The notes below the pieces were generated by a model. The model ran no database searches, was not told the DNA's origin, and saw nothing but the letters and a program-made list of their open reading frames with translations. From contig CAYUPH010000002.1 in assembly GCA_964446625.1 (NCBI GenBank), positions 5,743 through 69,742 on the forward strand: DNA of 64,000 nt, in the 5' to 3' direction. Shown piece by piece: positions 25,142-60,016 of the stretch; the stretch's first letter is position 1; every line of letters begins with the position of its first letter. Position numbers and translations under genes: made by a program. The DNA comes from an uncultured Candidatus Saccharibacteria bacterium. Lineage in GTDB: Bacteria > Patescibacteriota > Minisyncoccia > Phycocordibacterales > CAIRYW01.

Positions 25142-25163
25142 GTACGAATTATACCACAGTGAC

Positions 25164-41295: not shown

Positions 41296-41988
41296 CTACT
41301 TTCTATCCCTTTTTCTCCAAAGTTCGATTTCTGCGTGGTTTCCTGAGAGGAGAACCTTTGGTACTTTGTACTTTTTACCCTTCCAGAGGAGGACTTCCGG
41401 CCGAGTATAGACGACGCTCGACGCTACCCTTTCCTCTTCTCTGGAGTCAAAGTTTCCAAGAACTCCCTCAATTTGTCTCGAAATCGAATCAATCAAAATC
41501 ATCGCTGGAATTTCACCTCCGGTAAGAACATAATCCCCAATCGATATATCTTCCATTTTAAAGACTTTCTTTACTCGCTCGTCAATTCCCTCATACCTCC
41601 CACACACAAGAATAATATCGGTATACTTCTTCGAGGCTGATTTCGCATAATTTGTATCAAACTTTTTGCCGGTAGGTGAAAAGAAAACAATTTTTACCTT
41701 ACTCTTTTTTTGCTTCTCCCCTTTTGTAATTTTCTTAAAAATTGCCTCTAAAGCTCTTAGAACAGGCAATGCTTCTATTACCATACCTGGTCCTCCCCCA
41801 TACGGTTTATCATCAACTCGTAGATACGGCTTCTCCTTTTGCTTTTGAGACTTACTCGCTTTTGCAAAATCCCTAGGGTTGTAAAAACTTACCTTTATTT
41901 TCTTCTCTTTTATAGCACGCGCCAAAATCGACTCGGAAAGATACGAGCCGACAAGGTCCGGAAAAAGGGTGACAACATGAAATTTCAT
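41296..41988 (-). CDS. trmD: tRNA (guanine37-N1)-methyltransferase
   Basis: MKFHVVTLFPDL N-terminus and SPOUT fold motifs. The start is taken at the internal ATG 41988 because the upstream part of the ORF is Ala/Leu junk. Confidence 0.85.
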   Translation of the reverse strand: MKFHVVTLFPDLVGSYLSESILARAIKEKKIKVSFYNPRDFAKASKSQKQKEKPYLRVDDKPYGGGPGMVIEALPVLRALEAIFKKITKGEKQKKSKVKIVFFSPTGKKFDTNYAKSASKKYTDIILVCGRYEGIDERVKKVFKMEDISIGDYVLTGGEIPAMILIDSISRQIEGVLGNFDSREEERVASSVVYTRPEVLLWKGKKYKVPKVLLSGNHAEIELWRKRDRK

Positions 41989-42023
41989 ACCGTGACTATA
42001 CAATAAAACAAGTAAAATGAGAA

Positions 42024-42047
42024 GGGGCGCAGCGGATGCTGCGCCCC
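42024..42047 (-). terminator. GC-rich hairpin (ggggcgcagc ggat gctgcgcccc) with a U-rich 3' flank on the minus strand, 36 nt upstream of trmD. Possible attenuator.
   Basis: Perfect 10-bp stem. Two further hairpins lie at 42074-42087 and 42105-42128. Confidence 0.35.
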
Positions 42048-42206
42048 TTTGGGCTTTTGTCTTTTTTCGGACTGGGCTAAACAGCCCGATAACAAACAAG
42101 AGCAGTGAGGGATGAAGCGCTTCCTCACTTTTTCCTCATACAACCTACTCTTTCTCTAAACAAAAAACAAGTCCCTCTCGGGACTTGTTTTTTGTTTTTG
42201 AGATAT

Positions 42207-42533
42207 TTAGATGTGGAGGTCTTCCATAGCTTCGTCTACTGATTTCATTGCAGGAGAAGCAGATGGTGCTGATTCGCTTCGAGTGTACCCTTCTGGTTCG
42301 TTGATCTTTAGGTTTACTCGAGCATTGTTTTTCATTCCAACAACTCGTAGAAGTGTTCGGATTGCTTTCGCTGTGTTTCCTTGTCTTCCAATCACTTTAC
42401 CCATATCGCTTGGGTCAACAGTGAGGATAAGGAGAACTCCCATTTCATCTACTGTTCTTGTAATCTTTACTGCGTCTTTGTTATCGACGAGCGCCTTTAC
42501 GACATAATCTAGAAATTGTGCGTCTGATTCCAT
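42207..42533 (-). CDS. KH-domain RNA-binding protein (KhpA/YlqC family)
   Basis: KH motif VIGRQGNTAKAIRTLL. Confidence 0.85.
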   Translation of the reverse strand: MESDAQFLDYVVKALVDNKDAVKITRTVDEMGVLLILTVDPSDMGKVIGRQGNTAKAIRTLLRVVGMKNNARVNLKINEPEGYTRSESAPSASPAMKSVDEAMEDLHI

Positions 42534-42633
42534 GTTTTTCTTTTACTCACTAAACAGCTTATAAACGGGAATGGCCGAATACCTTTTCCCACCCCAAAAG
42601 TATATCACAAATGGGGTATGTACTCAAGAAAGA

Positions 42634-42936
42634 TTAAGCCTTAGCTTCTTCTTTTTTCTGAGGAGATTTTCGAGGAAGAACGTTTACTTTCTTACCTTCG
42701 ACAATGTTTTTTGATACGAGAAGATTGTGGACAGTGTGTGATACCTGAGCACCTTTTGAAATCCAGTACTTTACTTTATCAGCGTCAATCTGAGTATTCT
42801 TTTCAAATCGGAAATCATGGTTTCCAAGAACCTCTAGAAAACGACCACTTTTTGCGGCGTTCTTTGAGTCAGTCAAAACAAGCTTAAATGCTGGTTCGTG
42901 CTTTCGTCCTACTCTTTGTAATCTTATTTTTAGCAT
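42634..42936 (-). CDS. rpsP: 30S ribosomal protein S16
   Basis: MLKIRLQRVGRKHEPAFKLVLTDS. Internal Met used as start. Confidence 0.9.
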   Translation of the reverse strand: MLKIRLQRVGRKHEPAFKLVLTDSKNAAKSGRFLEVLGNHDFRFEKNTQIDADKVKYWISKGAQVSHTVHNLLVSKNIVEGKKVNVLPRKSPQKKEEAKA

Positions 42937-42977
42937 AGACGAAATACTATCAGAAAGGTGCGTTTTGGTCAAATACC

Positions 42978-45206
42978 CTACTTTGCCATAGCCTCTGCAG
43001 CTGCAAACTCAATCGAGAGCACCTTTGACACAGCATCCCTTCCCATAGTGACTCCATAGAGAACCCCAGCTCTGCTCATTGTTTCTCTATTGTGAGTAAT
43101 CACAATAAGCTCTGAGTGTTTTGCAAGAGACTCTACCATGTCCCCATATTTTCGAGAGTTTGATTCGTCGAGTGCCGCGTCTGTTTCATCGAGAATAACA
43201 AAAGGTGGCGGATTTACCTGCGAGATAGCAAAAAGGAGCGCAATCGAAGTAAGCGCTCTTTCACCTCCTGAAAGCATCATAAGTCCTTTTATTTTCTTGT
43301 GTGGAAGAGACACTTCAACTTCAAGTCCTTCCTCTACTTTTTCTTCAGGGTTTTCTACTTCCCCTTCTGGCAAGACAGATTTACGTCGACTGTTCGCTCT
43401 TACAACACTAAGCGATGCTTTTCCACCTCCAAACATTGCTGTAAAGAAAGTATGAAATTCACTATTGATTTTTTGCACCCCTTCTTTAAATTCTTTGTCG
43501 AGTCTCTCTGTTAGTTCTGCAATCATTCGCACAAGATCATTTTTTGCTTCTTCAAGGTCAACCAGTTCACGCGCAAGAAAGAGGTCTCTTTCTTCTGTTT
43601 CTTTAAATTCCTTTTCAATATCAGCACCTCCTGCAACCCCTGCTTCTTCTAGCCTAATTCGCAGTCTCTCAATATGCTTTCTTTTCTCTGCTTGCTCTGC
43701 TCGGTTTTTGCCATCATTTGTCACAAACTCTTCTTCAAATCGCAAAACCTCGACTCCACAAAGAGTTGATATGTCTCCAATGTCATTCTTTAAATTCACT
43801 TCATCCGTTTGAAGGAGTCTCTCTTCGCTCTCTAGTCTTTGCAGTGCATTTCTCGCTTCATTTTGTTTTGCGATAATTTCAAAAATTTTCTTTTCTGCTT
43901 CTCTGCTTTCATCTTTTGCTTTTTCTATCTCCTCTTTCTTTTGATTGTATGCCCGCAGAAGCGCCTCTTCTTCTTTTCGAACATCTTCAAGACTTACTTC
44001 AATTTGTGTTTTCTTTTCCTTTAATGCCGAGATTTCAACCTTTAGCGCCTGAAGAGAGCTTGATGGAGTACTATGTTTGTTTCTCTCAATAAAGTGTCGA
44101 ATAATTTTTTGAATATCAGCAATACAATTCTGAAGACTCTCTGCGTCGCGCTCTGCTCCACTTAATCTCTCGGCAACTTCTCTTTCAAGCTGTTCTACTT
44201 CTTTTAGTGACACAGTCTTTGACTCGTCCTCATGCAAAGCTTTTTCTTCTCTTTCCAAAGCTTTTCCCGAAAAAGAAATCTCTCCCTCAAGACGCCCAAG
44301 GTCCCGCACCAAAGAGTCCTTCCGTGTTCGCGCTTCTGAAAGCGAAGCTTCGAGTGAAAGGATTTCAGGTGTGCTTTCTCGGTCCTTTACTCCTGCTTCT
44401 ACCGCTTTTCGGGCAGCAAGGAGCTCGGTCTCAAGCACACGCAGTTCAAGCTCCGGTGCTTTCTTTTTGTTTTGTAAATTTTCTTTTGCCTCGCCAATGT
44501 AGAGCGACTCGATTTTAAAATATATCCTCGAAGCAGAAATAAGTTCCTCGCGCATTTGTCTCGATTTTTCTACTTTCTCTACCTGCTTTTTAAGAAAACG
44601 CAGGTGCGGAGCAATCTCACGCCTAAGGCTTTCTACTTGGCGAATATTTTCATCTGTCTTTTGAAGCTTTCGCTCGCTTTCTTCTTTTTTGTATTCGTAA
44701 ATTTTGATTCCAAGAGCGTCCTCTATCATTTCTCTTTTTTCTCTTGGACTTGCATGTAGAATTCGGTCGGCTTCACCTTGAGAAATAATATGGTGTCCTG
44801 AAGCTCCAATATTTGCCTGCGCTAGGAGCTCAGAAATGTCTTTTAGTCGAACTTTGCTTCCGTTTATTGCATACTCATTTGAACCATCTGAAAGCACCAC
44901 TCGCTCAATAGATACCTCGTCAAAATCCACCGCAAAAAGTTTTTGACTGTTATCGAACACAAGTTTGACGCCCGCCCTCGAAGAGCGGGGTGCTTCGCTT
45001 GACCCACTAAAAATAAGGTCCTCCCCTTTTTTTCCTCGCATACTTTTCATAGACTGTTCTCCCAGTACGAAACGAAAAGCTTCTGCGACGTTACTTTTTC
45101 CAGAACCATTTGGTCCAACAATAGCTGTAATTGGTGCAGTAAAATTTAAGACTGTTTTTCGTCCAAAAGATTTAAACCCTGTTATCTCGAGACTTTTGAG
45201 TGTCAT
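42978..45206 (-). CDS. smc: SMC-like ABC ATPase (742 aa) with a short coiled coil and no recognisable hinge domain
   Basis: N-terminal ITGFKSF...GPNGSGKSN. C-terminal LSGGERALTSIALLFA...ILDETDAALD. Sits in conserved rnc-smc synteny. Confidence 0.8.
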   Translation of the reverse strand: MTLKSLEITGFKSFGRKTVLNFTAPITAIVGPNGSGKSNVAEAFRFVLGEQSMKSMRGKKGEDLIFSGSSEAPRSSRAGVKLVFDNSQKLFAVDFDEVSIERVVLSDGSNEYAINGSKVRLKDISELLAQANIGASGHHIISQGEADRILHASPREKREMIEDALGIKIYEYKKEESERKLQKTDENIRQVESLRREIAPHLRFLKKQVEKVEKSRQMREELISASRIYFKIESLYIGEAKENLQNKKKAPELELRVLETELLAARKAVEAGVKDRESTPEILSLEASLSEARTRKDSLVRDLGRLEGEISFSGKALEREEKALHEDESKTVSLKEVEQLEREVAERLSGAERDAESLQNCIADIQKIIRHFIERNKHSTPSSSLQALKVEISALKEKKTQIEVSLEDVRKEEEALLRAYNQKKEEIEKAKDESREAEKKIFEIIAKQNEARNALQRLESEERLLQTDEVNLKNDIGDISTLCGVEVLRFEEEFVTNDGKNRAEQAEKRKHIERLRIRLEEAGVAGGADIEKEFKETEERDLFLARELVDLEEAKNDLVRMIAELTERLDKEFKEGVQKINSEFHTFFTAMFGGGKASLSVVRANSRRKSVLPEGEVENPEEKVEEGLEVEVSLPHKKIKGLMMLSGGERALTSIALLFAISQVNPPPFVILDETDAALDESNSRKYGDMVESLAKHSELIVITHNRETMSRAGVLYGVTMGRDAVSKVLSIEFAAAEAMAK

Positions 45207-45284
45207 GGTTATAAGTATAAAGGATTAAAGGGAAAGTAGAAATACACAGTTGCAAAATAGAGAAAAAGGAATAAAATCGGGTTT

Positions 45285-45497
45285 ATGAATAAACTCGCTC
45301 TTTTTAGAAAAACTGTCTGGGCAACCATCTCTCCGATCTGTAAAGATCCCGGCGCATGGCTTCTTACTTTCTCACTCGTTCTTGTAACGATTGATAAGTC
45401 GAGCTTACCAAGTCTTTTTGCACTCTCAACCTCCGTATTAGCACTCATCACTGAGATGATTGTTTTGGTAAGGCAAGAAGATGGAGCCAGTTCCTGA
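45285..45497 (+). CDS. Hypothetical small membrane protein (70 aa, 2 TM)
   Basis: Hydrophobic ORF followed by two plus-strand terminators. Weak SD. Confidence 0.3.
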   Translation: MNKLALFRKTVWATISPICKDPGAWLLTFSLVLVTIDKSSLPSLFALSTSVLALITEMIVLVRQEDGASS

Positions 45498-45516
45498 TTC
45501 TCCAGAACCACCTTCT

Positions 45517-45541
45517 GCCTCCTGATCGGGAGGTTTTTTTA
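45517..45541 (+). terminator. Terminator cctcc tgatcg ggagg plus T7
   Basis: Read from the sequence. Confidence 0.5.
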
Positions 45542-45548
45542 TGTAAAA

Positions 45549-45590
45549 AGCCGGGGCACTTCGCGCCCCGGCTGTTGTTTCTTTTTACTT
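45549..45590. terminator. Bidirectional terminator agccggggc acttcgc gccccggct
   Basis: 9-bp GC stem. T-rich on the plus side and ttttt on the minus side; serves rnc on the minus strand. Confidence 0.6.
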
Positions 45591-45603
45591 TCTACTTTTT
45601 TCT

Positions 45604-46290
45604 CTACCACCCCTTCGCTCCGAGTCCCTTTCTTGCCGCGTCTTGTTCTGCTTCTTGTTTGCTTTTTCCACTTCCTTCTGCAACACACTCCTCGCCTACG
45701 AAAACCGCAACTGTAAATTGTTTGTCGTGGTCTGGTCCATTTTCTCGAACAGTTTTGTATACAGGAGTTAGTCCCACTTCTTCTTGAGCTTTCTCTTGAA
45801 AGAAACTTTTTGCATCAATCCAAAGTCTCTTCTCTTCAATTTCTTCAAGCCGTGGAAGCAAAACTTTGTTTATAAATTTTTCTGCCTCCTCGTAACCTTG
45901 GTCGAGATAAATCGCACCAACAACAGATTCAAACGTATTTGCTAGTATGTATTGTCTCGCTCTCCCTTTGTCTTTTGCTTCACCTTTTGAAAGAAGTAGA
46001 AATTCATTAAATCCCAGCTCCAGAGAAATATCTGAAAGGATGTTTGAGTTTACAAGCGCAGATCGTAGTGCTGTCATTTCTCCTTCTGGTTTCTTTGGAT
46101 ATTTTTTGTACAAAAAGTCTGTGACAACAAGCTCTAAAACTGCGTCACCCAAAAACTCTAGTCTCTCGTTGTGCTCAAGACCAAGTCCTCTGTTTTCATT
46201 TAAATACGAACGGTGAGTAAAAGCTTTTTTTAGAAGCTCTTTGTTCTTAAATACTGTTGCTATTGTTTTTTCTATTACTTCAAAATCCAT
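45604..46290 (-). CDS. rnc: Ribonuclease III
   Basis: ERLEFLGDAVLELVV signature and a C-terminal dsRBD. Confidence 0.9.
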   Translation of the reverse strand: MDFEVIEKTIATVFKNKELLKKAFTHRSYLNENRGLGLEHNERLEFLGDAVLELVVTDFLYKKYPKKPEGEMTALRSALVNSNILSDISLELGFNEFLLLSKGEAKDKGRARQYILANTFESVVGAIYLDQGYEEAEKFINKVLLPRLEEIEEKRLWIDAKSFFQEKAQEEVGLTPVYKTVRENGPDHDKQFTVAVFVGEECVAEGSGKSKQEAEQDAARKGLGAKGW

Positions 46291-46295
46291 TTTCT

Positions 46296-47195
46296 CTATG
46301 CAGTTTTTGACGCCAAAAGACTAATTGCTTTTGTGACAATGGGGAGAATATCATCATAAAAATTTAGGTCAAGGATTTCATTTACTTTAAACCATTTTGC
46401 ATCGTCGAGGCCTCCTGACTCTCCAAGTGAAAGTTCAGTCATGTCTGCGCGAGCCAAAAAGTAGTTTACTTGCTTTCGGACTTTGCCTTTTTCTGGAAAA
46501 GTTGCGACATATTCATTTGAGCCAAGTTTATCTTCCGGAGTCACTTCTACTCCCATTTCTTCTTTTACTTTTCGAACAACTGCAAGCTCATCAGATTCGT
46601 CTGGTTCGTTGTGCCCCTTCGAAAGAGTCCAGTGTCCAAATACATCATGGACAAGTGCTAAGAAAATATCGTCTCCTTCACGAGCGTACACCACCGCCCC
46701 TACCAGCCTTTCAATTGGAAGAGACTCAAACGGAACCTCCTCCGCTTTTCGCTTTGAAGCCTGATCTTTTCCAGGCTCACCAAGCTCTTTGTATACCGCT
46801 CCCAAAACTCCGTTTACGAACTTTCCAGAAGTGTCTCCTCCGAAACTTTTTGCAAGCTCAATCGCTTCGTTAATCGCTACCTTTGGAGGAACTTGTGTTC
46901 TGTCAGCAAAGAGAAGCTCAAAAAGACCGATGCGGAGTACATTTCGGTCAACATTTGCAATCTTTTGAAGTGGCCAATCTGGGGCTGCTTTTTCAATAAT
47001 TCTATCGAGGTCAGGCTGTTTTTTTACAACACCCTCCGCAAGAGTTTTCATATATTCCGCGTCAGTTGAACCAGCAGCGAACTCAGAAATGTTCCGCTCT
47101 AGTGTCGGCAAAACCATATCAGATTTCTTTCCATTGAAATCCCACTCAAATATTGTTTGCAAAACGACAGACCTTGAAAGATGCCTATTGGCCAT
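46296..47195 (-). CDS. nusB: NusB antitermination factor fused to a C-terminal NUDIX hydrolase domain
   Basis: VPPKVAINEAIELAKSFGGDTSGKFVNGVL is near-identical to E. coli NusB. Then comes the Nudix box GHWTLSKGHNEPDESDELAVVRKVKEEMGV. Confidence 0.85.
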   Translation of the reverse strand: MANRHLSRSVVLQTIFEWDFNGKKSDMVLPTLERNISEFAAGSTDAEYMKTLAEGVVKKQPDLDRIIEKAAPDWPLQKIANVDRNVLRIGLFELLFADRTQVPPKVAINEAIELAKSFGGDTSGKFVNGVLGAVYKELGEPGKDQASKRKAEEVPFESLPIERLVGAVVYAREGDDIFLALVHDVFGHWTLSKGHNEPDESDELAVVRKVKEEMGVEVTPEDKLGSNEYVATFPEKGKVRKQVNYFLARADMTELSLGESGGLDDAKWFKVNEILDLNFYDDILPIVTKAISLLASKTA

Positions 47196-47531: not shown

Positions 47532-48467
47532 CTAGGTGGAACCGACCTGACCCTCAAGGAAGTCGGTAACCGTATTATACCGGTGGAACACCTCGGCAGA
47601 AAATTCTGGCGACAAGGCAGTCATTCCCCTGTTTGTTTTGAGGAAAAGACGGATTATCTCCTTGTCGAAATAGTTTCTGGATATACCCCACCCATAGATG
47701 CGCATTTCGTCGCCCGTTATTCGGTCAATAAGAATAAGGTCTCCCTGCTCATTAAATCCGAATTCGAGCTTGAAATCGACAAGTTCATGAAGACCCCGGG
47801 CGAACAACTCCTTGAGCAGATTCCCTACCTGGAGCGCCATATTCTTCATTTCCCTGAATCGGGATCGAATATCCCCATTGGTTCCGCCTACTAAGCTGAG
47901 ATCTAATTGAGAAGCATAGCCTGCATGCTGGCTTGTCCCAGCTTTTAGCACATGTATCCAATCATCCAGGACTTTAATCTGTGTGTCAGGTAGAAAAAAG
48001 CCCGGCTTAAGAAATAGCAGAGGATCGTCAAGTCGGTCATTCTTATAGAAAAACTCAACAACTGGAGTCTCAAGTGGCGTGCCGACTGGAAATCTTTGAC
48101 TTTTCGCATACGAACCATCCGCGACAAATCGAACCACCACTTCAAGTGGTAGCGCGGTTGCTCGCGTTATAGGGATTTTTGTTCCCTCCCGAGGGCCGCC
48201 TGTAAAACAGGTGTGAATCCCCTTTTCCTGAAGGTAACGCCATATTACATGCGCTTGGCGCATTCGCACCTCACCCATGCCTGGAATAGTGATGCGACTC
48301 TTGCCGTTTCCGGCGGTCACATCATTCGTGCAATCCAGAAAACATTGCTCTCCATATTCAATAACCCGGGCAACCTTGCCCGCATGAATTATTTTCATGG
48401 CTTTTTCGTAGATACGTACCTCAACAAAAGTCCGGCCACGGACCAATTTCAAGGTACTAGTTTTCAA
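47532..48467 (-). CDS. purC: SAICAR synthetase (phosphoribosylaminoimidazole-succinocarboxamide synthase)
   Basis: LVDFKLEFGFNEQGDLILIDRITGDEMRIY matches the VDFKLEFG...DE..PD motif. N-terminal AGKVARVIEY...TAGNGKSRI. GC is about 48%. The track start at 48467 is TTG; the first ATG is at 48398. Confidence 0.8.
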   Translation of the reverse strand: MKTSTLKLVRGRTFVEVRIYEKAMKIIHAGKVARVIEYGEQCFLDCTNDVTAGNGKSRITIPGMGEVRMRQAHVIWRYLQEKGIHTCFTGGPREGTKIPITRATALPLEVVVRFVADGSYAKSQRFPVGTPLETPVVEFFYKNDRLDDPLLFLKPGFFLPDTQIKVLDDWIHVLKAGTSQHAGYASQLDLSLVGGTNGDIRSRFREMKNMALQVGNLLKELFARGLHELVDFKLEFGFNEQGDLILIDRITGDEMRIYGWGISRNYFDKEIIRLFLKTNRGMTALSPEFSAEVFHRYNTVTDFLEGQVGST

Positions 48468-49125: not shown

Positions 49126-49437
49126 TTAATCCAGGCGTCCACCTTTATCACTGTATATTATCAGCTCGTCTCCTTCTTTGTAAAAGAGGTCAAATTGGTT
49201 GAGCAAGGTGATATCTGAGTCGGCCATCCCTCCGATATATTGAATCAGAACCCCAGTGACCTGACCATCTGTCTCATTGGGTATACACCCAACAACGAAA
49301 CAAGGACCCTGTGACCTTTTCGTTTTTCTGTATCGAAGGGCCCGGGCCTCAAACCGAGTGTCAAGATGATGCTCAACTTGGTTGGCGAACTCGGCAACCG
49401 TTAGCGGTTGCCTGAACGTAAAAAGAGCGTTTCTCAT
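49126..49437 (-). CDS. Hypothetical protein (103 aa), GC-rich
   Basis: ORF with its own hairpin terminator (gacgcctg...caggcgtc plus T-run on the minus strand). No recognisable motif. Confidence 0.45.
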   Translation of the reverse strand: MRNALFTFRQPLTVAEFANQVEHHLDTRFEARALRYRKTKRSQGPCFVVGCIPNETDGQVTGVLIQYIGGMADSDITLLNQFDLFYKEGDELIIYSDKGGRLD

Positions 49438-49478
49438 AACCTCTCGATACTACTCCCGCACTGTGTTAAAATCAAGCA

Positions 49479-52400
49479 ATGTCGAAATTCATACATCTTC
49501 ACACACACAGTCATTACAGTTTGCTTCAGGCTCTTCCGAAGCTTCCAGACCTTGTCAAAAAAGCAAAAGAAGAAGGTATGGAAGCTATCGCGCTCACCGA
49601 CTCTGGAAACCTCTATGGAGCAATCGAGTTTTACAAAGAATGTCAAAAACAAGGTGTAAAACCAATTCTTGGCGTTGATTTTTATGTTGCAGCAAGGACT
49701 CGCCACGACAAGGAGCCCCGAATCGACAACAAGCGAACTCGCCTCGTTCTCATTGCAAAAGACCTCGTTGGTTACCAAAACCTTATTCACCTTGTTACCG
49801 ATTCACATATTGAAGGGTTTTATTATCGCCCTCGAATCGACAAAGAGCTACTAGAAAAATACAAAGAAGGGCTCATCTGTATCTCCCCATCGTTTTCCGG
49901 AGACATATCTCTTGCGCTCAAAAACGGAAACGAAGAAGCCGCAAAAACTTTTGCAGACTTTTACAAAAAAAATTTTGGCGATGATTTTTATCTTGAAATC
50001 ACAAACCATCCCGAGATAGATGATTTTAATGCGCGAATGGATAGGCTTGTTAGTTTTGCTAATGCAGAAGGAATTAATCTGGTTGCTGCACACGATGTCT
50101 ACTATCTTGAACTTTCTGATCAGAAAGCGCGAACTACACTCCTCTCTGTTCAAAAAAGTTTTAGTGGCGGTGGATCTGATGACGAAGGAGATTTTTCTTT
50201 TCTTTCAGAAAAAGAAGCGCTTCGACGGTTTAAAAAACTTGAGGATGCGCTTCAAAACACTCTGAAAATCGCAGAAAAATGCACCCTTGAAGTTCCTCTT
50301 GGAAAATGGATGTTCCCCGAAATTCCAATCGAGAGCGGACTTTCTCCCGATGACGAACTCCGCCGTCTTGTGTTCCTTGGTTTTGACTCGCGAGGAGTTT
50401 CAAAAGATGAAAAAACTCTAGAGAGAGCTGAGTACGAGCTTTCAGTTATTAAACAAAAAGGTTACGCCCCTTACTTCCTTGTAGTAGCGGACCTCCTCCG
50501 CTACGCAAAAGAAAATGGAATCCTCTCTAACATTAGAGGTTCGGTTTCCGGCTCTCTTGTGACTTTCCTTTCTGGAATCACAAACATAAACCCGCTGGAG
50601 TACGATATTCCCTTTGAACGATTTCTAAACCCTGACCGACCAAGTGCACCGGACATTGATATGGACTACGCCGATAACAGACGAGATGAAATGGTAGAGT
50701 ATGCCCGCAAAAAATATGGCGCAGAAAAAGTAGCACAGATCGGAACATTCGGTACAATGGCGGCGCGAGGTAGCGTTCGTGATGTTGCGCGCGCTCTTGG
50801 CTACCCAGTAGCTCTTGGGGATAGAATTGCAAAACTTGTTCCAATGGGAAGCCAAGGATTTCCAATGACAATAGAGCGCGCACTTGAAGAGTCTGACGAA
50901 CTTAAATCTGCGTACAAAAAAGAAGAGGATGTCAAAAAGATTATTGACATGGCAAAAAAGATTGAAGGTTCTGCGCGACACATCGGAGTCCATGCCGCCG
51001 GTGTTGTGATTGCACCAATCCCTCTTACTGAAGTGACACCGCTTCAGTACGACCCAAAAGGTGAAGGAAAAATCATTACTCAGTACGACATGTACTCAAT
51101 TGACGAGAACAACGCCGGACTCCTCAAGTTCGACTTCCTTGGACTCAAAAACCTTTCAATTATTGCTGACACAATAAAGCTCGCAGAAAAACTAAAAGGA
51201 GTCACAATCGACTACGACAATATTCCACTAGACGACAAAAAAACTTTCGAAATGCTCGCGCGTGGCGAGACCGAAGACACCTTCCAATTAAACGGAGACG
51301 GTATGACGCGCTTTTTAGTTGAACTAAAACCCTCAAACATTCACGACATCAACGCGATGGTGGCCCTCTACCGTCCAGGACCACTTCAGTTTATTCCTGA
51401 TTATATTGCTCGAAAACATGATGCGAGCAAAATCCCTGCAATGGACCCCGCGATTTACGAAATTCTAAAAAAGACTTACGGAGTTCTTGTGTACCAAGAC
51501 GACCTTCTTATGATGGCTCACAAACTTGCGGGCTACAGTTGGGGTGAAGTCGATAAATTCCGAAAAGCGGTTGGAAAGAAAATTCCAGAAGAAATGGCAA
51601 AACAACGAAAGCAGTTTATCGAAGGTTGTGTAAAACATTCTGGTTGGACAGAAAAGCGTGGAGAAGAAATCTGGAGCTGGATCGAGCCTTTTGCTGCGTA
51701 CGGATTTAACAAAGCACACTCTGTTTCGTATGGACGAGTTGCGTATATTACAGCCTACCTCAAAGCAAACTTCCCTGCTGAGTACATGAGCTCTGTCCTT
51801 ACACACGAATCAGGAGACGTCGACAAGGTAGCAATCTCTGTAGCGGAGTGTAAACGCATGGGTCTCGAAGTTCTTCCGCCGGACGTGAACGAAAGTTTCG
51901 CGGGCTTTACGGTTGTACTTGGAGAAGATGGAAAAGAAAAAATTCGTTTTGGACTCACAACAATCAAAAACTTTGGTGAAGGAATTGCGGAGTTTATTAT
52001 CGAAGAAAGAAAACGCGGTGGACGATTTACAAGCATTGAAAATTTCCTAGAGCGGATCCAAGACCGAAACCTCAACAAAAAGTCTCTTGAATCACTAATC
52101 AAATGCGGTGCGCTCGATACCCTCTTTGACCGAGTAACACTTTTCCAAAACTTAGACCTGCTCCTAGAATACAACAAAGAACACGCAAAGAACTCAGGAC
52201 AAGACTCACTCTTTAGTGCACTTTCTGGAGGGACTCACAAAATTGATATGCGCGCACCCGTGGGCGATATGGCAGACGATAAACTTAGGTGGGAAAAAGA
52301 ACTTCTCGGACTTTTCCTTTCAGGGCACCCACTCGAAAAATACAAACAAAAGATTGACGCTAAAGGTGTTTCGATAAAAAAGCTCGAAGGATCAAAGGAA

Positions 52401-54722: not shown

Positions 54723-57689
54723 CTACTGCAAAACTTTTCCATTTGAAAGGCGGACTTCTAGGAAGCAGCCAAGAGCATCATTGGCTGCTTTTGTTGTTGA
54801 CTCAAACCAGCGGCCCGTCGGAGTCTTTGCCCCCCAAGGCGAAAGAATCTTCTCACTGTATTTTGCTTGGAACCTTTTTACTGCATCCATAACTGCATTG
54901 TCGTACACATTCTCAGATTTCACTTCAGCAAAACTAAGCTTTTCTCCGGCAACAAAGTTCAAAAATTGTTTTATCTTAAATACACCTTCCCCTTTCGCTC
55001 CGAGATTTGCATAATCATTAGAAGTAAAAAATGGGCAGGCAAAGCTGTTTTTTGCAGTACATACGATTGTGTTAATTCTGTTTACTGTTGAGACATACAC
55101 TCGTCCAGTTGGTTTTGACAGTCCCCAAAAAGAAAGGACTGATGCTTCTTTACTTTGGAACCGTTTTACAGCCTCAAATGTTTGAGTGTCGTAAACTCCG
55201 GTCACAGAAAGTTTTTCTCCTTCGTATGTATTAAGAAAATTTTGCAGTTTTTCTACTTCAGTTTTTGAGTTTGTTTTTCCGTACTCAATATACTCGGTTA
55301 AATATGGCTCACAAGAGACTGGTGCGTAGTTTGGATTATTTGGATTGTCGGGATTGTTTGGAGCAGAAACCGGAAGTGCAGGAGTAGTAGGAGTATCTTT
55401 TTGCTTAGGTTTTGTACTGGTAGTTATTCCTCCGCCCCCGCCTCCCCCACCAGAAGATACTGTGTGCACGACAATGTTTGCACTGTCTCCTAGGTTATTC
55501 GGTGCAGAAGGAACAGAATATGAAGTACTTGTGTTATATAGACTATCCGCAACAGAAGCTGAAATAATAGACGAAACAGTGAGATCACTTGCAGAATCAG
55601 AAGAAGAAACTGTATAAGTTCCTGAAATCACATTTCCTGAAACAGACGAAAGTGTGACACTTCCTCCTGAGTTTAGAAGAAGTGTTAGTGTTGAGGTCGA
55701 TGTCACATTTTCATCAAAAGTTGCACGCACTGTGATTGTTTGACCTGAACTATATGTTCCGTCCGGTGAGGCTGTAGTAAACGAAACTAGAGCAGGAGCT
55801 GAAGAGTCTAGAACTCCGGTTGTAAAAGTATAATCAGTAGTTGTTGCAAGATTGTTTAGTAAATCAAAAGCGTACACACTAAAATGGTACAGTGTACTTC
55901 CAGAAAGTCCTGTGAGGTTTACAGTGTGCGTTGTTATACCTGAAGATGTAGAAACAGTGCCGTAAGAAGTTGTGGTTCCAAAATGCACTGAAGAAGATGC
56001 CGCTTCATCAGTAGTCCAAGAGATGGTTGCTGTTGTTGCAGTCGTTGAACTTGAGACGCTAGAAATAACTGGCGGGGTGGTATTTATAACAATATCATTT
56101 TCTGCACTAAGTGAATCATTGTCTACCGGATTAGGTAGAGCAGCAAGCGAACCTGTGCTAAAAGCGTTAAAGTTTATAGTAAATCCCGTCGTATCAAGTG
56201 CGGAAGAATCCTCATAATCAAGGTCGCTTGAAGAGTCCCCTGCCTGAACGGTGTAATTGAACACCCATGTACTTGTTGCCGTATCACAGTTAGAGCATGG
56301 CACTTCTGTTGTTCCGCTTCCTGTGTCGAGCGTAAGAGTCGGCACTTCTCCTGAGTTTGTATAGACAAGAAAGTCTGGATTTTCGTTAAAGTTTACATAA
56401 ATCGGAATCGTACTCCCTGTACCAAAAGTTCCATTTAAAGGTGAAGAGACACAAGGGTGCATTACTGCACCGCTCCAACCATTCCCTTCATTAATATTTG
56501 TGTGGCACCCCAAATCTTTTGTGGTAACGCCAACCATTGTTACTGCGGAAATCCCTTCATCAAGAGAAGAATTTTCTTCCATACTAAGTGAGTCTCCAAT
56601 GAGAACAGCTGAAGACACTGAACTACTATCATTAAATGTTATTGACCCCCCGACCACACTGATCGTGTGGTCTGTAAAACTAGAGGAGTCGTTAAAAATC
56701 GCATAGCTAGCAAGATTCAAACCCAAATCAACATTTGAACTATCAAATGCTTCGAGACTATTTACTGTTTTAGCGCCCGAACCGCTATAAACACTGTCGT
56801 AAATATATACGTGGTCATTTGAAGTTGGAAGACGGACAACTTGATCACTAAAAGATCGATCAACTCCTTTTGTGAGCCACCAGCTTGTAAGTGTATCCCA
56901 ATCACTACTAGTATTCCCTGCATAAAAATAAACATCACAATTGTCATACGAAATTGTTCCATCTACTGTTCCATTGTTTTGTGCTGTACATCCAAAAAAA
57001 GCGTTACCTGATGCATGTCCAGTATGCTCGCTGTAATCATAAAACGATACGCCACCTGAAAAATTTCCAGAGCTATTGCTTGCATTTGTAGAATGATCAC
57101 GAAAATCTGCTTGGGACACCCATGCAGATGCCAAGTTTGCAGAATTATCAAAAAAGTACGCGTTACCCCAATCTACTGTTCCTCCATTTTGGCTGTTATT
57201 CCTAAAGTATGTAGTAGACAGAACACTAGCGCCAACATTGTTTACTGATGAGTCGAGAAATTCCGCCACAAGGTTTATGGTAGTGTTGTTACTCGAAGTA
57301 TCGTAAAAGTGGATGTTTGGTGCAAAGTAGTCTTTATTGTTTATTGAACTACCCCGAAAATTAATACCAGTTGTAACAGTAAATGAAGCAGTTCCTGTAA
57401 TAGTTCCACTCATAACATTAAGTCCATGAACTGAGACAGAAGAAACCCTTGATGTGTCTACATCTGCATAAATATAGGCATCATCTGAGGCTCCAGGAGT
57501 ACCTCCCGCAGGAATAGTAAAACCTACATCAGAAAACCAGTTATTTGTGTTTCCCCAGTCACTGTCTACTGCGTCAGTAAAGTAATAATCTGCCGCGTTC
57601 GCAAAAGAAGGTGCAAAAAAGAGTGTGAAAATTATAAGTAATACGGTTTTTTTTGTGATATTTGAAACAACAAGATTCATCATTCTCAT
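54723..57689 (-). CDS. Large secreted surface protein: signal/TM, S/T/N-rich beta-rich repeats, FN3-like segment, Gly8 linker, and two C-terminal putative peptidoglycan-binding (PGBD-like) domains
   Basis: N-terminal hydrophobic segment. Duplicated ...FLN...GVYD..T..AVKRFQ.K... motif at the C-terminus. Confidence 0.7.
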   Translation of the reverse strand: MRMMNLVVSNITKKTVLLIIFTLFFAPSFANAADYYFTDAVDSDWGNTNNWFSDVGFTIPAGGTPGASDDAYIYADVDTSRVSSVSVHGLNVMSGTITGTASFTVTTGINFRGSSINNKDYFAPNIHFYDTSSNNTTINLVAEFLDSSVNNVGASVLSTTYFRNNSQNGGTVDWGNAYFFDNSANLASAWVSQADFRDHSTNASNSSGNFSGGVSFYDYSEHTGHASGNAFFGCTAQNNGTVDGTISYDNCDVYFYAGNTSSDWDTLTSWWLTKGVDRSFSDQVVRLPTSNDHVYIYDSVYSGSGAKTVNSLEAFDSSNVDLGLNLASYAIFNDSSSFTDHTISVVGGSITFNDSSSVSSAVLIGDSLSMEENSSLDEGISAVTMVGVTTKDLGCHTNINEGNGWSGAVMHPCVSSPLNGTFGTGSTIPIYVNFNENPDFLVYTNSGEVPTLTLDTGSGTTEVPCSNCDTATSTWVFNYTVQAGDSSSDLDYEDSSALDTTGFTINFNAFSTGSLAALPNPVDNDSLSAENDIVINTTPPVISSVSSSTTATTATISWTTDEAASSSVHFGTTTSYGTVSTSSGITTHTVNLTGLSGSTLYHFSVYAFDLLNNLATTTDYTFTTGVLDSSAPALVSFTTASPDGTYSSGQTITVRATFDENVTSTSTLTLLLNSGGSVTLSSVSGNVISGTYTVSSSDSASDLTVSSIISASVADSLYNTSTSYSVPSAPNNLGDSANIVVHTVSSGGGGGGGGITTSTKPKQKDTPTTPALPVSAPNNPDNPNNPNYAPVSCEPYLTEYIEYGKTNSKTEVEKLQNFLNTYEGEKLSVTGVYDTQTFEAVKRFQSKEASVLSFWGLSKPTGRVYVSTVNRINTIVCTAKNSFACPFFTSNDYANLGAKGEGVFKIKQFLNFVAGEKLSFAEVKSENVYDNAVMDAVKRFQAKYSEKILSPWGAKTPTGRWFESTTKAANDALGCFLEVRLSNGKVLQ

Positions 57690-57708
57690 GTCTCAATTAT
57701 ATCAGTTT

Positions 57709-58362
57709 CTATTTATTCTGAAAAGCGAGTTTCTCTTTAAAAACAGCTTCTGATACATACCTGTCTTGCTTCTTTCCAAAGGTATTGCAAGTTGAAAGTG
57801 TCACCATGTTTACACCCTCTTTAAACTCAATAAGTTCCTTTGTAGCGTCCACTAGACGCGTATTTTGTACTACATACACATAGCGATAGTTTTCAGAGTC
57901 AACATAAACTTCGTCTCCTTCTTGGAGTTTTTTTACACCATTAAAAGCTTTATATACTTTGTTTGGGTAGTCATCTCCGGCGCTGTGACCAAAAAGAAGC
58001 ATGTTTCCTTCAGGAAGTTTGCCGGAAGTTGGATACCTTACAACACCCTCCTTGAGGTACGCATCAAGAACTGCTACGTCGGTCTTCTCAGGGTTTAATA
58101 CTTTATAGTCGATACCCGCGCTCGGTGCTGAAATATGAATTGGAAGCTCTGGTTTTTCCTTTGGAGTTTCAAAGGGAGTTGTAATAGTTTCAGGTGCTAA
58201 AGTTTTCCTTTCAAGGAACTCGAAAAAATTCTCTCCTTCCCGAAGTGAACTCGGAACAATCCCTGTAATATAAAGGAGACTAAAGCTTAGAGTAAAGATT
58301 GCGAAAAAGAGCCCAGTGAAGCGCAGAATTCGAAAAATCTCTTGTTTTTCCTTATTTTTCAT
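57709..58362 (-). CDS. Sortase-family transpeptidase
   Basis: N-terminal TM; His LLFGHS, Cys TLSTC and Arg DRYV. Confidence 0.75.
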   Translation of the reverse strand: MKNKEKQEIFRILRFTGLFFAIFTLSFSLLYITGIVPSSLREGENFFEFLERKTLAPETITTPFETPKEKPELPIHISAPSAGIDYKVLNPEKTDVAVLDAYLKEGVVRYPTSGKLPEGNMLLFGHSAGDDYPNKVYKAFNGVKKLQEGDEVYVDSENYRYVYVVQNTRLVDATKELIEFKEGVNMVTLSTCNTFGKKQDRYVSEAVFKEKLAFQNK

Positions 58363-58409
58363 TGAGTTTTAATTATACAACGGTATAAAATATTAAGTCA
58401 ATAAATATA

Positions 58410-58438
58410 TTGACATAAGGCTAAAAAAGGTATATAAT
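58410..58438 (+). promoter_or_regulatory. Canonical sigma70 promoter TTGACA-17 nt-TATAAT
   Basis: ttgaca taaggctaaaaaaggta tataat, 21 nt upstream of the ATG at 58460. Confidence 0.5.
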
Positions 58439-58459
58439 GTGTAAATAACTAATAAACAT

Positions 58460-60016
58460 ATGCATACAGAAGAACATCGAACAGAAGAGCACCATATTGA
58501 AATCGTAGAAGGAGGAGTTCATGGCACTCACGATGTGAGCGACTCGCACGGGGCGGACGAATCTGAAAACGAGGGTTTCTCTTCAAAAATAATCAAATGG
58601 ATTGTAATAGCAGGTATTTTAATCGTGCTTCTTATTGCGAGTATTGCGATTGTAAAACTTGTTCCAAAGGCAATTTCTAAAATTTCTGGTGCAGCAGTCT
58701 TTCTTGGACAAGGAGGAAGCAACCTCGCTGTTGGAACAAACAAATCTTCAGTTCGAAGTGAAGATTCTTTTTCTGTTACTTGGAAAGGAAAAGAATACGA
58801 AAACGAAGTTTATCGAAGCGTTAGCTTTAAATGTGTCTCTGGTATAACAGTTGAATACAAATCAACAAACGGCATGAAGCCTGTTATTTGTGATACTGTC
58901 TTCCCTCTTCCAAACACTCCAGAAGGGTCTTTTCCTTTTGTGGTTACTTCTCTTCTTTCAGAAAAAGAAGAACTTCCTTTCGTAATCTCTGTTACAGACA
59001 AACTTGAAAACAAAGTTATTGTAAGTAATGCGAGTTCAGTAGATGTATTTCCAAAAGGTAGCGGTAATGACTCTGCACCTGGTGACTACACACCCGATTA
59101 CTCTAACCCAAATCCAAGCACAGGAACCGCAACATCAACAAACTCAGGCGCTGGTTCAAAAGATACAACCAAAACTCCACCTAAAACTACAACTGGTGGA
59201 ACAGGATGGGGTGGAAACACTTCTTCTTCTGGAGGATATGGAACATCATACACTGGCGCTGAAACAGGAAACCCTGATCTAAGGCTTGTCCTTACAAATG
59301 TATATGTCACTGACAGACAGACAGGAAACAATAAATCTACTTCTAATATTTACAGTGGAGATAGAATAACAGCACGGTTCCAAGTAACAAACATTGGAAC
59401 GCGCTCTTCTGGACTTTGGGTACTTAACGCACAAATTCCTTCTTCAAACGCAGCCGACAGATCTTACACTTCTGGGTACCAGCCATCACTTACACCAGGA
59501 AGTGTTTACGAAATGGTAATTGGTTTCGATTCATACGACGGAAACGGTGACCTTGTACTCACCGCATCAAACAATAATGATGCAAATCCTTCTAACAATC
59601 AGCTTGTGGTACCACTCGACGGAAATGGTAGCTCTTCTGGAAACAATGGACGAGCTGACCTTACTGTCCGAATTACGGGAGTTGGAATTTCCAATGGAAA
59701 CGGGAGCATATACTACACAAACAATTTTGACGAAAGCGATGAAATCGCAGTTCGTTTTGAAATCGAAAACATTGGTGGAACTCAAAGCGGACGATTTTCT
59801 TTTGAGGCTGAGCTTCCTTCACGAGATGATGATACCTATTCATCTCCAAACTATTCATCGCTCGCTCCTGGAGAAAAACGAGAATTTGTTCTCGTGGTAG
59901 AAAATCCAGACTCTGGTTCTAGTCGAATTCGAATAAAGGTAGATCCTGATGGTGATATTCGAGAATCAAACGAAAACAACAACACAGACTCAGAAACAAT
60001 CGATATTGATAACTAA
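58460..60016 (+). CDS. Membrane-anchored surface protein with a His-rich cytoplasmic N-terminus, signal-anchor TM and two CARDB-like domains
   Basis: PDLRLVLTNVYVTD...ARFQVTNIGT and ADLTVRITG...VRFEIENIGGTQSG ... DPDGDIRESNENNN. Confidence 0.7.
   Translation: MHTEEHRTEEHHIEIVEGGVHGTHDVSDSHGADESENEGFSSKIIKWIVIAGILIVLLIASIAIVKLVPKAISKISGAAVFLGQGGSNLAVGTNKSSVRSEDSFSVTWKGKEYENEVYRSVSFKCVSGITVEYKSTNGMKPVICDTVFPLPNTPEGSFPFVVTSLLSEKEELPFVISVTDKLENKVIVSNASSVDVFPKGSGNDSAPGDYTPDYSNPNPSTGTATSTNSGAGSKDTTKTPPKTTTGGTGWGGNTSSSGGYGTSYTGAETGNPDLRLVLTNVYVTDRQTGNNKSTSNIYSGDRITARFQVTNIGTRSSGLWVLNAQIPSSNAADRSYTSGYQPSLTPGSVYEMVIGFDSYDGNGDLVLTASNNNDANPSNNQLVVPLDGNGSSSGNNGRADLTVRITGVGISNGNGSIYYTNNFDESDEIAVRFEIENIGGTQSGRFSFEAELPSRDDDTYSSPNYSSLAPGEKREFVLVVENPDSGSSRIRIKVDPDGDIRESNENNNTDSETIDIDN

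What the first reader, a model, noticed from the sequence alone, without database searches (positions are those of the whole stretch)
42978..45206. Compact SMC-like protein (742 aa) in the conserved rnc-smc position but without a hinge domain
The head domains are canonical (FKSF, Walker A, signature LSGGERALTSIALLFA, D-loop). Synteny (rnc upstream; rpsP-KH-trmD downstream) marks it as the SMC orthologue.

The coiled-coil arms total only about 400 aa. The midpoint (around ...IRHFIERNKHSTPSSSLQALK...) has no Gly-rich globular hinge of about 150 aa.

A hingeless, short-armed SMC would resemble RecN/SbcC-type architecture. That raises the question of how, or whether, it dimerises and entraps DNA.
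Basis: partly seen in the sequence, partly recalled or inferred. Interest (0 to 1): 0.55.

Follow-up and report, generated by a model that had tools for sequence, protein, structure and literature searches.

The report
Hinge-less, half-length SMC of Paceibacteria
This gene is the chromosome-organising SMC protein of a tiny uncultured bacterium, and like its relatives across a whole bacterial class it has lost the central "hinge" that normally joins two SMC molecules, ending instead in a plain helical hairpin (or a zinc-hook-like tip in one sister group).

Summary
ORF 42978-45206 (-) encodes a 742-aa protein with a complete SMC ATPase head: 45% identity-class matches to B. subtilis Smc heads and TIGR02168 at 545 bits. 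It lies in the ancestral nusB-rnc-smc-rpsP-KH-trmD cluster.

There is no hinge. PF06470 is absent, while a Bacillus control scores 1e-31. AlphaFold2 makes residues 168-592 entirely helical, and the distal arm alone folds as a confident two-helix hairpin (pLDDT 94).

This is not a one-off or an artefact. The exact protein recurs on 12 independent contigs. The 150 best 50%-identity cluster representatives are all 643-782 aa, and the 80 best species loci encode products of about 615-813 aa. All named sources are Parcubacteria/Paceibacteria.

One correction: the structural tip is at residues 350-354, not at "HSTPSS" (378-383). Each arm is about 180 aa, roughly 27 nm, or about half the Bacillus arm.

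A sister clade (Vogelbacteria-like, 45 proteins) carries an invariant CxxCGQ at exactly that tip. It resembles a natural version of the engineered, functional Smc(zinc-hook) chimera.

How the hook-less majority closes its distal end is unresolved, as is whether ScpAB exists. I found no published description. Verdict: new variant of a known kind.

The parts
42978..45206 (-). Complete ORF of 742 aa plus stop: hinge-less SMC orthologue
   Evidence: ORF listing. Pfam SMC_N 6e-65 spanning residues 3-727. TIGR02168 545.5 bits. Identical protein on 12 contigs.
44706..45206 (-). N-terminal half of the ATPase head (residues 1-167). Contains FKSF (45165-45176), Walker A (45093-45116), the MRGKK arginine-finger region (45027-45041) and the Q-loop (44766-44786).
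   Evidence: Motif positions. Residues 1-209 align to B. subtilis Smc 1-209. The columns are near-invariant in the family.
44160..44705 (-). N-terminal strand of the coiled-coil arm (residues 168-349). The neck, 168-215, is almost invariant. There is a helix break at 276-280 (44367-44381).
   Evidence: AlphaFold2 secondary structure. Conservation.
44208..44228 (-). N-strand kink loop (residues 327-333), an indel hotspot that faces the loop at residues 378-383
   Evidence: Helix break in both models. Its length covaries with the 372-413 segment, r=0.64.
44145..44159 (-). Hairpin tip loop of the arm (residues 350-354, G-A-E-R-D). It sits where a hinge would be. It has no Cys pair and no conserved motif.
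   Evidence: The helix breaks are mirror-symmetric about residue ~354. Zinc-hook orthologue geometry predicts a tip at ~349. The mirror correlation of the profiles peaks at n+c = 702-705. The 281-429 segment folds alone with pLDDT 93.8 and pTM 0.68, with a loop at 351-354.
44058..44075 (-). C-strand kink loop HSTPSS (residues 378-383). The invariant F372 lies just before it, opposite L334.
43431..44144 (-). C-terminal strand of the arm (residues 355-592). It includes the conserved joint-like block 484-526 (43629-43757), with loops at 493-501 and 523-526, and the conserved neck 540-590.
   Evidence: AlphaFold2. The best Foldseek hit is 5xei, 'Smc head with coiled coil and joint', E 1.7e-21. Conserved G484, R502, Q505, E513, R518, E520 and G523.
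42981..43430 (-). C-terminal half of the ATPase head (residues 593-742). Contains the signature LSGGE... (43227-43274), Walker B/D-loop (43167-43202) and H-loop (43089-43103). The last residues, A741 and K742, are invariant.
45549..45573 (-). Terminator-like hairpin directly after rnc. It is followed by a non-conserved spacer of about 340 nt before the smc start.
   Evidence: Terminator scan: 11 pairs, 9 of them G-C, then a T run. The spacer has no Rfam match at E below 0.47 and no blastn match in 84 related loci.
45604..47195 (-). Upstream conserved neighbours: RNase III (45604-46290) and the NusB-NUDIX fusion (46296-47195)
   Evidence: Pfam. Present next to the short smc in 70 and 71 of 83 loci.
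41296..42972 (-). Downstream conserved neighbours: rpsP/S16 (42634-42972), KH protein (42207-42533) and trmD (41296-42099)
   Evidence: Pfam. Recurrent in related loci.

Best explanation
This is the Smc (prokaryotic condensin) orthologue of a Parcubacteria/Paceibacteria (CPR) bacterium. The hinge domain and roughly the distal half of each arm have been lost.

What remains:
- a complete, apparently catalytically competent SMC ABC-ATPase head;
- a strongly conserved neck and joint;
- an antiparallel coiled coil of about 180 residues per strand (about 27 nm), which simply turns back on itself in a short variable loop at residues 350-354.

Proposed mechanism, in steps:
1. Inferred from homology of the heads: two protomers sandwich ATP between Walker A/B of one head and the signature motif of the other, and bind DNA on the engaged heads, as in other Smc proteins.
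2. Inferred, not shown: a kleisin-type partner bridges the neck of one protomer and the cap of the other. The near-invariant neck (residues 168-215 and 540-590) and the invariant C-terminus fit such a partner.
3. Inferred: the two short arms zip into a rod.
4. Distal closure is not made by a hinge. In a sister clade an invariant CxxCGQ at the tip would supply half of a Rad50-like inter-chain Zn(Cys)4 site, that is, a constitutive dimerisation hook. In the window protein and most of the family there is no such site. There the distal ends are held, if at all, by weak coiled-coil contacts, and the dimer depends mainly on heads, partner proteins and arm-arm packing.
For: SMC identity:
- PDB sequence hits to Smc heads at E 6.5e-89.
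- TIGR02168 at 545.5 bits.
- All ATPase motifs present.
- The best structural match is Smc head plus coiled coil plus joint, 5xei.

Orthology:
- The rnc-smc linkage is as in Bacillus and Mycoplasma.
- The nusB-rnc-smc-rpsP-KH-trmD cluster is present in 70 or more of 83 loci.

No hinge. The distal arm best matches the two-helix hairpin of p85 iSH2 and an Smc5/6 arm.

Clade-wide and under selection:
-. Among the 80 best GTDB-species loci, the ORF extracted at the match is 736-797 aa in most and 615-813 aa overall (one 897-aa outlier looks like a mis-picked neighbouring gene).
- The identical sequence is on 12 contigs.

Tip position.

Hook clade:
- 45 of the 379 family proteins held have CxxC at the tip.
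- C331, C334 and Q336 are invariant in a clade that is only about 50% identical overall.
- Those genes share the same synteny.

Precedent: B. subtilis Smc with the hinge replaced by the P. furiosus Rad50 zinc hook supports normal growth (Burmann 2017, PMC5344682).
Against: - No kleisin or kite gene (ScpA/ScpB) was found in the window, in about 20 kb of flanking contig, or next to smc in 83 loci. Their existence in these genomes is unverified.
- The tip and its flanks show only an ordinary a/d hydrophobic pattern and poor sequence conservation, so nothing positively indicates tip-to-tip contact in the hook-less majority.
- TIGR02168 is just below its curated cut-off.
- The zinc-hook reading of CxxCGQ rests on the motif, its position and its invariance. 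The Pfam Rad50_zn_hook hit is sub-threshold, E 0.034, and was seen in P0174 only.
- The full-length AlphaFold2 model gave unexpectedly low confidence for the head, pLDDT 28-48 over residues 1-76.
- A second, canonical smc elsewhere in the genome was not excluded.
Confidence: 0.7

Rival explanations
1. Open-ended SMC. The hook-less protein never joins at its distal end. It works as a head-dimerising ATP-gated DNA clamp or bridge, RecN-like in logic, with or without a kleisin. It therefore has no closed SMC lumen. This is a sub-hypothesis that competes with step 4 of the best explanation.
For: The tip loop varies in length and sequence. There is no extra hydrophobic seam and no Cys or His site. 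The distal arm is predicted as a plain two-helix hairpin.
Against: A sister clade conserves a dimerisation-type CxxCGQ at exactly this point, which suggests that distal joining matters in this family. From my own knowledge (Hirano and Hirano 2002), single-armed B. subtilis Smc hinge mutants are defective in DNA interaction.
Confidence: 0.3
2. Specialised paralogue. The genome also has a canonical full-length Smc with a hinge elsewhere, and this short protein has a different, for example repair-related, role.
For: Only about 84 kb of the genome could be inspected. NCBI names the family merely 'AAA family ATPase'.
Against: The short gene occupies the ancestral smc slot next to rnc. Its heads score far higher against Smc than against any other SMC-superfamily model. 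No hinge-bearing protein appears among the 120 best hits or the 150 best representatives. From general knowledge, CPR genomes are small (0.5-1 Mb) and rarely keep paralogues.
Confidence: 0.08
3. It is really a RecN-, SbcC- or Rad50-type DNA-repair ATPase that was mistaken for Smc.
For: The architecture (head, hairpin coiled coil, head, no hinge) and the size resemble RecN and SbcC. Relatives carry a Rad50-like CxxC.
Against: RecN TIGR00634 scores 37.4 bits against a cut-off of 407.85. Rad50 models score 54 bits or less against cut-offs of 700-1087 (TIGR00606: 25.5 against 453.75). The archaeal SMC-related model scores 45 bits against 300. There is no Mre11/SbcD neighbour. In the aligned head regions the protein is close to B. 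subtilis Smc, and the conserved Smc joint is present.
Confidence: 0.04
4. Artefact: a truncated, mis-assembled or decaying smc gene.
For: None beyond the unusual length.
Against: The reading frame is intact and all catalytic motifs are present. The identical sequence occurs in independent assemblies. Hundreds of diverged orthologues have the same length and the same conserved neck and joint.
Confidence: 0.01

Closest known systems
Canonical bacterial Smc of Smc-ScpAB (B. subtilis type, TIGR02168)
   Same: The ATPase head, neck and joint are shared, as is the genomic position after rnc. Sequence similarity in the heads is strong (E 1e-88 to the PDB heads).
   Different: There is no hinge (PF06470). 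The arm is about 180 aa per strand instead of about 340. The protein has 742 aa instead of about 1186. It falls just below the curated family cut-off. Partner proteins are unverified.
Engineered B. subtilis Smc(Zh) and Mini-Smc (Burmann et al. 2017, PMC5344682)
   Same: Both combine an Smc head and arm with a hinge that has been replaced or an arm that has been shortened. The Vogelbacteria-like sister clade looks like a natural Smc(zinc hook).
   Different: Those are laboratory constructs with arms of about 230 aa or more. The window protein has neither hinge nor hook. The natural arms (163-182 aa in the N strand) are shorter than any hook construct named in the strain list of that paper.
Archaeal SMC-related proteins (ASRP: ClsN/coalescin, Sph1/2; Yoshinaga et al. 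2022, PMC9389158)
   Same: These are shorter SMC-superfamily proteins in which a zinc hook stands in place of the hinge. From my own knowledge, ClsN organises chromosomes in a lineage that lacks canonical Smc.
   Different: They are archaeal, with a different head lineage: NF045487 scores only 45 bits against a cut-off of 300. The window protein has no hook.
RecN
   Same: RecN is a hinge-less SMC-superfamily ATPase whose coiled coil is a simple hairpin. From my own knowledge (Pellegrino et al. 2012), it dimerises through the coiled-coil tips.
   Different: The head family differs (TIGR00634 scores 37 bits against 407.85). RecN is a DNA-repair protein, has no rnc linkage and has shorter arms.
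Rad50/SbcC
   Same: A coiled-coil hairpin whose tip carries CxxC is shared with the hook-bearing orthologues.
   Different: The window protein lacks the CxxC. Its heads are Smc-type, and there is no Mre11/SbcD partner gene nearby.

Membership tests
Bacterial Smc (TIGR02168 SMC_prok_B) | Split ABC-ATPase head with Walker A, Q-loop, signature motif, Walker B/D-loop and H-loop | tested here: met
   Motifs located. SMC_N scores 6e-65. B. subtilis Smc head structures match at E 6.5e-89.
Bacterial Smc (TIGR02168 SMC_prok_B) | Whole-protein score at or above the curated cut-off | tested here: not met
   545.5 bits against a cut-off of 567.35. The shortfall fits the missing hinge and distal arm.
Bacterial Smc (TIGR02168 SMC_prok_B) | Central globular alpha/beta hinge dimerisation domain (PF06470) | tested here: not met
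   No hit at E<=10. The Bacillus positive control scores 1.4e-31, and nine family members give no hit. Residues 168-592 are all helical. The distal arm is a two-helix hairpin.
Bacterial Smc (TIGR02168 SMC_prok_B) | Long intramolecular antiparallel coiled coil of about 340 aa per strand | tested here: not met
   The coiled coil is antiparallel and intramolecular, but the N strand is only 168-349, or 182 aa.
Bacterial Smc (TIGR02168 SMC_prok_B) | Conserved head-proximal neck and joint | tested here: met
   The best Foldseek hit is 5xei, head plus coiled coil plus joint, E 1.7e-21. The neck is near-invariant and the 484-526 block is conserved.
Bacterial Smc (TIGR02168 SMC_prok_B) | Conserved gene position downstream of rnc | tested here: met
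   Window. Bacillus and Mesomycoplasma. 70 of 83 related loci.
Smc-ScpAB complex | Kleisin ScpA and kite ScpB encoded in the genome | tested here: inconclusive
   None was found in the 64-kb window, in about 20 kb of extra flank, or near smc in 83 loci. Whole genomes could not be scanned.
Rad50/SbcC | CxxC zinc hook at the coiled-coil tip | tested here: not met
   The window protein has only two Cys, C361 and C483, and no CxxC. The motif is present and invariant in 45 orthologues of a sister clade.
Rad50/SbcC | Family HMM score and a neighbouring Mre11/SbcD nuclease gene | tested here: not met
   Rad50 models score 54 bits or less against cut-offs of 700-1087 (TIGR00606: 25.5 against 453.75). 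There is no nuclease neighbour.
RecN | TIGR00634 score at or above the cut-off | tested here: not met
   37.4 bits against 407.85.
Archaea-specific SMC-related proteins (ASRP) | NF045487 score at or above the cut-off | tested here: not met
   45.4 bits against 300.

The most novel reading that the evidence does not exclude
A whole bacterial class (Parcubacteria/Paceibacteria, hundreds of species or more) runs chromosome organisation with an Smc that has no dedicated distal dimerisation domain. That would mean SMC function without a hinge-closed lumen. A sister lineage solved the same problem by evolving a zinc hook on an Smc arm. If so, nature has already done the hinge-deletion and hinge-swap experiments. 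The hinge would then be dispensable for core SMC activity in vivo.
Probability: 0.3. Interest if true: 0.8.

Novelty: new variant of a known kind. Interest (0 to 1): 0.66.

Why it matters
The hinge is treated as a defining part of every SMC protein. It has been proposed to act as dimerisation site, DNA-binding site and DNA gate, and what it is really needed for is still debated.

Engineered B. subtilis Smc tolerates a zinc hook in place of the hinge (PMC5344682). Even so, no natural Smc orthologue without a hinge turned up in nine full-text literature searches.

This family offers both natural cases. Most members have a bare hairpin tip, and one sub-clade has an invariant CxxCGQ tip. The arms are about half the usual length, and the heads, neck and joint are otherwise conserved.

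That makes three questions directly testable by biochemistry or by complementation in B. subtilis:
- Is distal closure required?
- How do arm length and tip type co-vary?
- Is a kleisin still used?

There is also a practical point. These proteins fall just under the curated Smc threshold and are annotated as 'AAA family ATPase'. Surveys that seed on the hinge, as in Burmann 2017, miss them by design.

Tried and rejected
1. Mapping the deletion against Bacillus Smc with a family HMM. The coiled-coil parts align non-specifically (HMM positions 1-492 to Bv 1-487 and 233-739 to Bv 678-1184), so the breakpoints cannot be read from sequence. Only the hinge region, Bv 500-666, stays unmatched.
2. Looking for an extra hydrophobic seam (a four-helix bundle) at the tip. 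The density of hydrophobic columns is the ordinary 5 in 21.
3. Testing whether hook-bearing proteins form one clade with a rough NJ tree of the heads. The tree does not resolve this: their common ancestor spans 41 of about 150 tips. However, the 37 nearest relatives of P0174 all carry the motif.
4. HMM support for the hook. Rad50_zn_hook is only sub-threshold, and Zn_ribbon_3 is weak in 8 of 45.
5. Searching for ScpA/ScpB or a conserved unknown partner next to smc. None was found. The slot between rnc and smc holds unrelated singleton ORFs in 27 loci.
6. Checking the 400-nt rnc-smc spacer for a structured RNA. There is no credible Rfam hit and no conservation.
7. Extending the window through its edge genes. 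The gyrB look-up failed because the called start differs. The two look-ups that worked added about 20 kb with nothing relevant.
8. Finding hinge-bearing Smc in other CPR classes, or ScpAB in Paceibacteria. The database tools return only the best-scoring hits, and these were always short-form proteins.
9. A homodimer structure prediction was not possible with the single-chain tool.
Full report
THE GENE AND ITS SETTING

The ORF at 42978-45206 on the minus strand is intact, starts with ATG and encodes 742 aa.
- NusB-NUDIX fusion, 46296-47195
- RNase III, 45604-46290
- the SMC gene
- ribosomal protein S16, 42634-42972
- a KhpA-type KH protein, 42207-42533
- TrmD, 41296-42099
- rpoB and rpoC beyond that

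In Bacillus velezensis the order is rncS-smc-ftsY, and in Mesomycoplasma hyorhinis it is rnc-smc. The gene therefore sits in the ancestral smc slot. A strong terminator-like hairpin (45573-45549) follows rnc. A non-conserved spacer of about 340 nt precedes smc.

THE HEADS ARE SMC

- Pfam SMC_N spans residues 3-727 at 6e-65.
- NCBIfam TIGR02168 (SMC_prok_B) gives 545.5 bits, just under its 567.35 cut-off. RecN, Rad50 and the archaeal SMC-related family score 37, at most 54, and 45 bits, far below their cut-offs.
- The best solved-structure sequence matches are B. subtilis and Geobacillus Smc head constructs, E 6.5e-89 to 1.6e-70.
- Walker A, Q-loop, signature motif, Walker B/D-loop and H-loop are all present.
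- The full-length AlphaFold2 model matches best to the Pyrococcus 'Smc head with coiled coil and joint' structure 5xei, Foldseek E 1.7e-21.
- One oddity remains unexplained. That model gave low confidence for parts of the head, pLDDT 28-48 over residues 1-76. The head assignment therefore rests on sequence, not on the model.

THERE IS NO HINGE

- PF06470 gives nothing, even at E<=10.
- As a positive control, Bacillus velezensis Smc gives PF06470 at 1.4e-31, residues 519-637. Nine further members of the short family give nothing at E<=1.
- AlphaFold2 predicts residues 168-592 as helices only, interrupted by short breaks, with pLDDT mostly 80-92.
- The distal arm (residues 281-429) was folded on its own with 37 homologous segments. 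It gives mean pLDDT 93.8 and pTM 0.68.
- Its best structural matches are long two-helix antiparallel hairpins: the p85 iSH2 domain and an Smc5/6 arm.

WHERE THE ARM TURNS

Five observations place the real tip at residues 350-354 (G-A-E-R-D).
1. The helix breaks at 276-280, 327-333, 350-354, 379-381 and 430-432 are mirror-symmetric about residue ~354.
2. Across 147 representatives, the length of segment 308-334 covaries with that of 372-413 (r = 0.64). The loops at 327-333 and 378-383 therefore face each other.
3. In 45 orthologues with a CxxC tip, the anchor distances are 22 residues from G308 to the first Cys and 64 from the second Cys to D432. These predict a tip at residue ~349 in the window protein.
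4. Mirroring the hydrophobicity and conservation profiles of the N strand onto the C strand peaks at n+c = 702-705, with r = 0.52-0.58. This register pairs conserved L334 with invariant F372, R293 with E413, and E286 with Y420.
5. Segment 281-429 folds confidently alone, with both ends at pLDDT 96-99. That requires helix 282-326 to pair with helix 383-428.

The arm is thus about 182 residues in the N strand, roughly 27 nm. Burmann et al. report 344 residues for B. subtilis. The C strand is longer because it carries the joint loops and a head-packing helix, as it does in Bacillus.

IT IS A CLADE-WIDE TRAIT

- The exact protein occurs on 12 contigs, among them contigs from at least three different sequencing runs.
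- The 120 best hits in a 5.8-billion-protein collection are 685-793 aa. None has a precomputed hinge domain.
- In a library clustered at 50% identity, the best 150 representatives (41-55% identical) are all 643-782 aa and align end to end.
- Among GTDB species genomes, 546 of 600 pattern-matched stretches encode a relative. The ORFs extracted at the match in the best 80 loci are 736-797 aa in most and 615-813 aa overall; one 897-aa outlier looks like a mis-picked neighbouring gene.
- Named sources are Taylor-, Kaiser-, Lloyd-, Zambryski-, Adler- and Vogelbacteria, Parcubacteria, Paceibacterota and Minisyncoccia.
- Heads, neck (168-215 and 540-590) and a joint-like block (484-526) are highly conserved. 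The stretch around the tip is the least conserved part.
- NCBI labels most of these proteins 'AAA family ATPase', which fits the sub-threshold TIGR02168 score.

A ZINC-HOOK-LIKE SISTER CLADE

- Six of the 150 representatives carry C-x-x-C-[GAK]-Q at the arm tip.
- A search seeded with one of them, P0174 from a Vogelbacteria MAG, found the motif in each of its 37 closest relatives listed. In all, 45 of the 379 family proteins held have it. The commonest form is CPYCGQ.
- In an alignment of these 45, which are about 50% identical overall, C331, C334 and Q336 are invariant. They are the only invariant residues in the distal arm.
- P0174 lies in the same nusB-rnc ... smc ... rpsP-KH-trmD-rpoBC context, so it is an orthologue.
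- One CxxC per chain can only complete a four-cysteine zinc site between two chains, as in Rad50. This step is inference. HMM support is weak: Rad50_zn_hook scores E 0.034 in P0174.
- The window protein has no such motif. Its only cysteines are C361 and C483.

MECHANISM

Shown or strongly supported: this is an Smc-type ATPase with a short hairpin arm and no hinge.

Inferred:
- ATP-dependent head engagement and DNA binding, as in other Smc proteins.
- A partner binding the near-invariant neck and the invariant C-terminus, probably a kleisin.
- Arm-arm alignment into a rod.

Open: how, or whether, the distal ends are joined in the hook-less majority. The tip shows only the ordinary a/d hydrophobic pattern and a loop of variable length. 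Yet a sister clade conserves a hook at that very point, which argues that distal joining is functionally relevant in the family.

No ScpA or ScpB gene was found in the window, in about 20 kb of flanking contig, or near smc in 83 loci. This covers only a small part of each genome.

COMPARISON WITH WHAT IS KNOWN

- Burmann et al. 2017 showed that B. subtilis Smc whose hinge is replaced by the P. furiosus Rad50 zinc hook supports normal growth. They also showed that arm length is constrained periodically. Their survey of natural arm lengths was seeded on hinge alignments and so could not see hinge-less proteins.
- Tatebe et al. 2020 showed the reverse swap works in Rad50.
- Archaeal ClsN/Sph proteins (ASRP) are SMC-related proteins with a zinc hook. 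They are a different head lineage.
- RecN is the bacterial hinge-less analogue, but it too is a different family.
- Nine full-text searches combining SMC, hinge, zinc hook, ScpA/B and CPR, Patescibacteria or Parcubacteria found no description of this family. The library covers open-access papers and bioRxiv only.

VERDICT

It is a new variant of a known kind: an Smc orthologue that has shed its hinge across a large bacterial class, with a natural zinc-hook version next door. The main gaps are the partner proteins, the possibility of a second smc elsewhere, and the oligomeric state.

Noticed in passing
L081:987-3095 and L082:6429-8537 (protein P0174); also P0135, P0152, P0172, P0191, P0207, P0271-P0305, P0311, P0316, P0331, P0374: Orthologous short Smc proteins of a Vogelbacteria-like clade carry an invariant C-x-x-C-G-Q (commonest form CPYCGQ) exactly at the arm tip. 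This looks like a natural Smc with a Rad50-type zinc hook in place of the hinge.
   Followed up: yes
window 45207-45603: There is an unusually long spacer of about 400 nt between rnc and smc. It starts with a strong terminator-like hairpin (45573-45549). The 100-codon ORF in it looks non-coding. In 27 related loci the same slot holds unrelated singleton ORFs, so this is a hypervariable insertion site.
   Followed up: partly
window 48142-48232 (+): ARAGORN calls a 91-nt tRNA-Lys(TTT) inside, and antisense to, the SAICAR-synthetase-like ORF at 47532-48467. Rfam found no tRNA anywhere in the window at gathering threshold. This is probably a false positive or an atypical tRNA.
   Followed up: no
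window 46296-47195 (-): NusB is fused to a NUDIX hydrolase domain in one 299-aa protein. The fusion is conserved upstream of rnc-smc in 71 of 83 related loci.
   Followed up: partly
window 23909-25183 (-): A 424-aa protein with a long coiled-coil middle and a Gly-rich, basic C-terminal tail has no significant Pfam match. It overlaps the start of the truB-like gene.
   Followed up: no
window 54723-60016: A cluster of surface-protein genes: a 988-aa Ser/Thr-rich protein with peptidoglycan-binding repeats and a poly-Gly run, a sortase (57709-58362), and a 518-aa CARDB-domain protein.
   Followed up: no
window ~49400-49500: Gene orientation flips here. Genes on the minus strand run up to about 49.4 kb, and dnaE starts on the plus strand at 49479. 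Cumulative GC skew reaches its minimum near 50 kb. This may only reflect strand bias of genes. No dnaA is nearby.
   Followed up: no
window 42978-45206 (model mbb204673559b): The full-length AlphaFold2 model gave very low confidence for the highly conserved N-terminal head (pLDDT 28-48 over residues 1-76) but high confidence for the arm. The cause is unexplained. A shallow, low-diversity alignment is one possibility.
   Followed up: no
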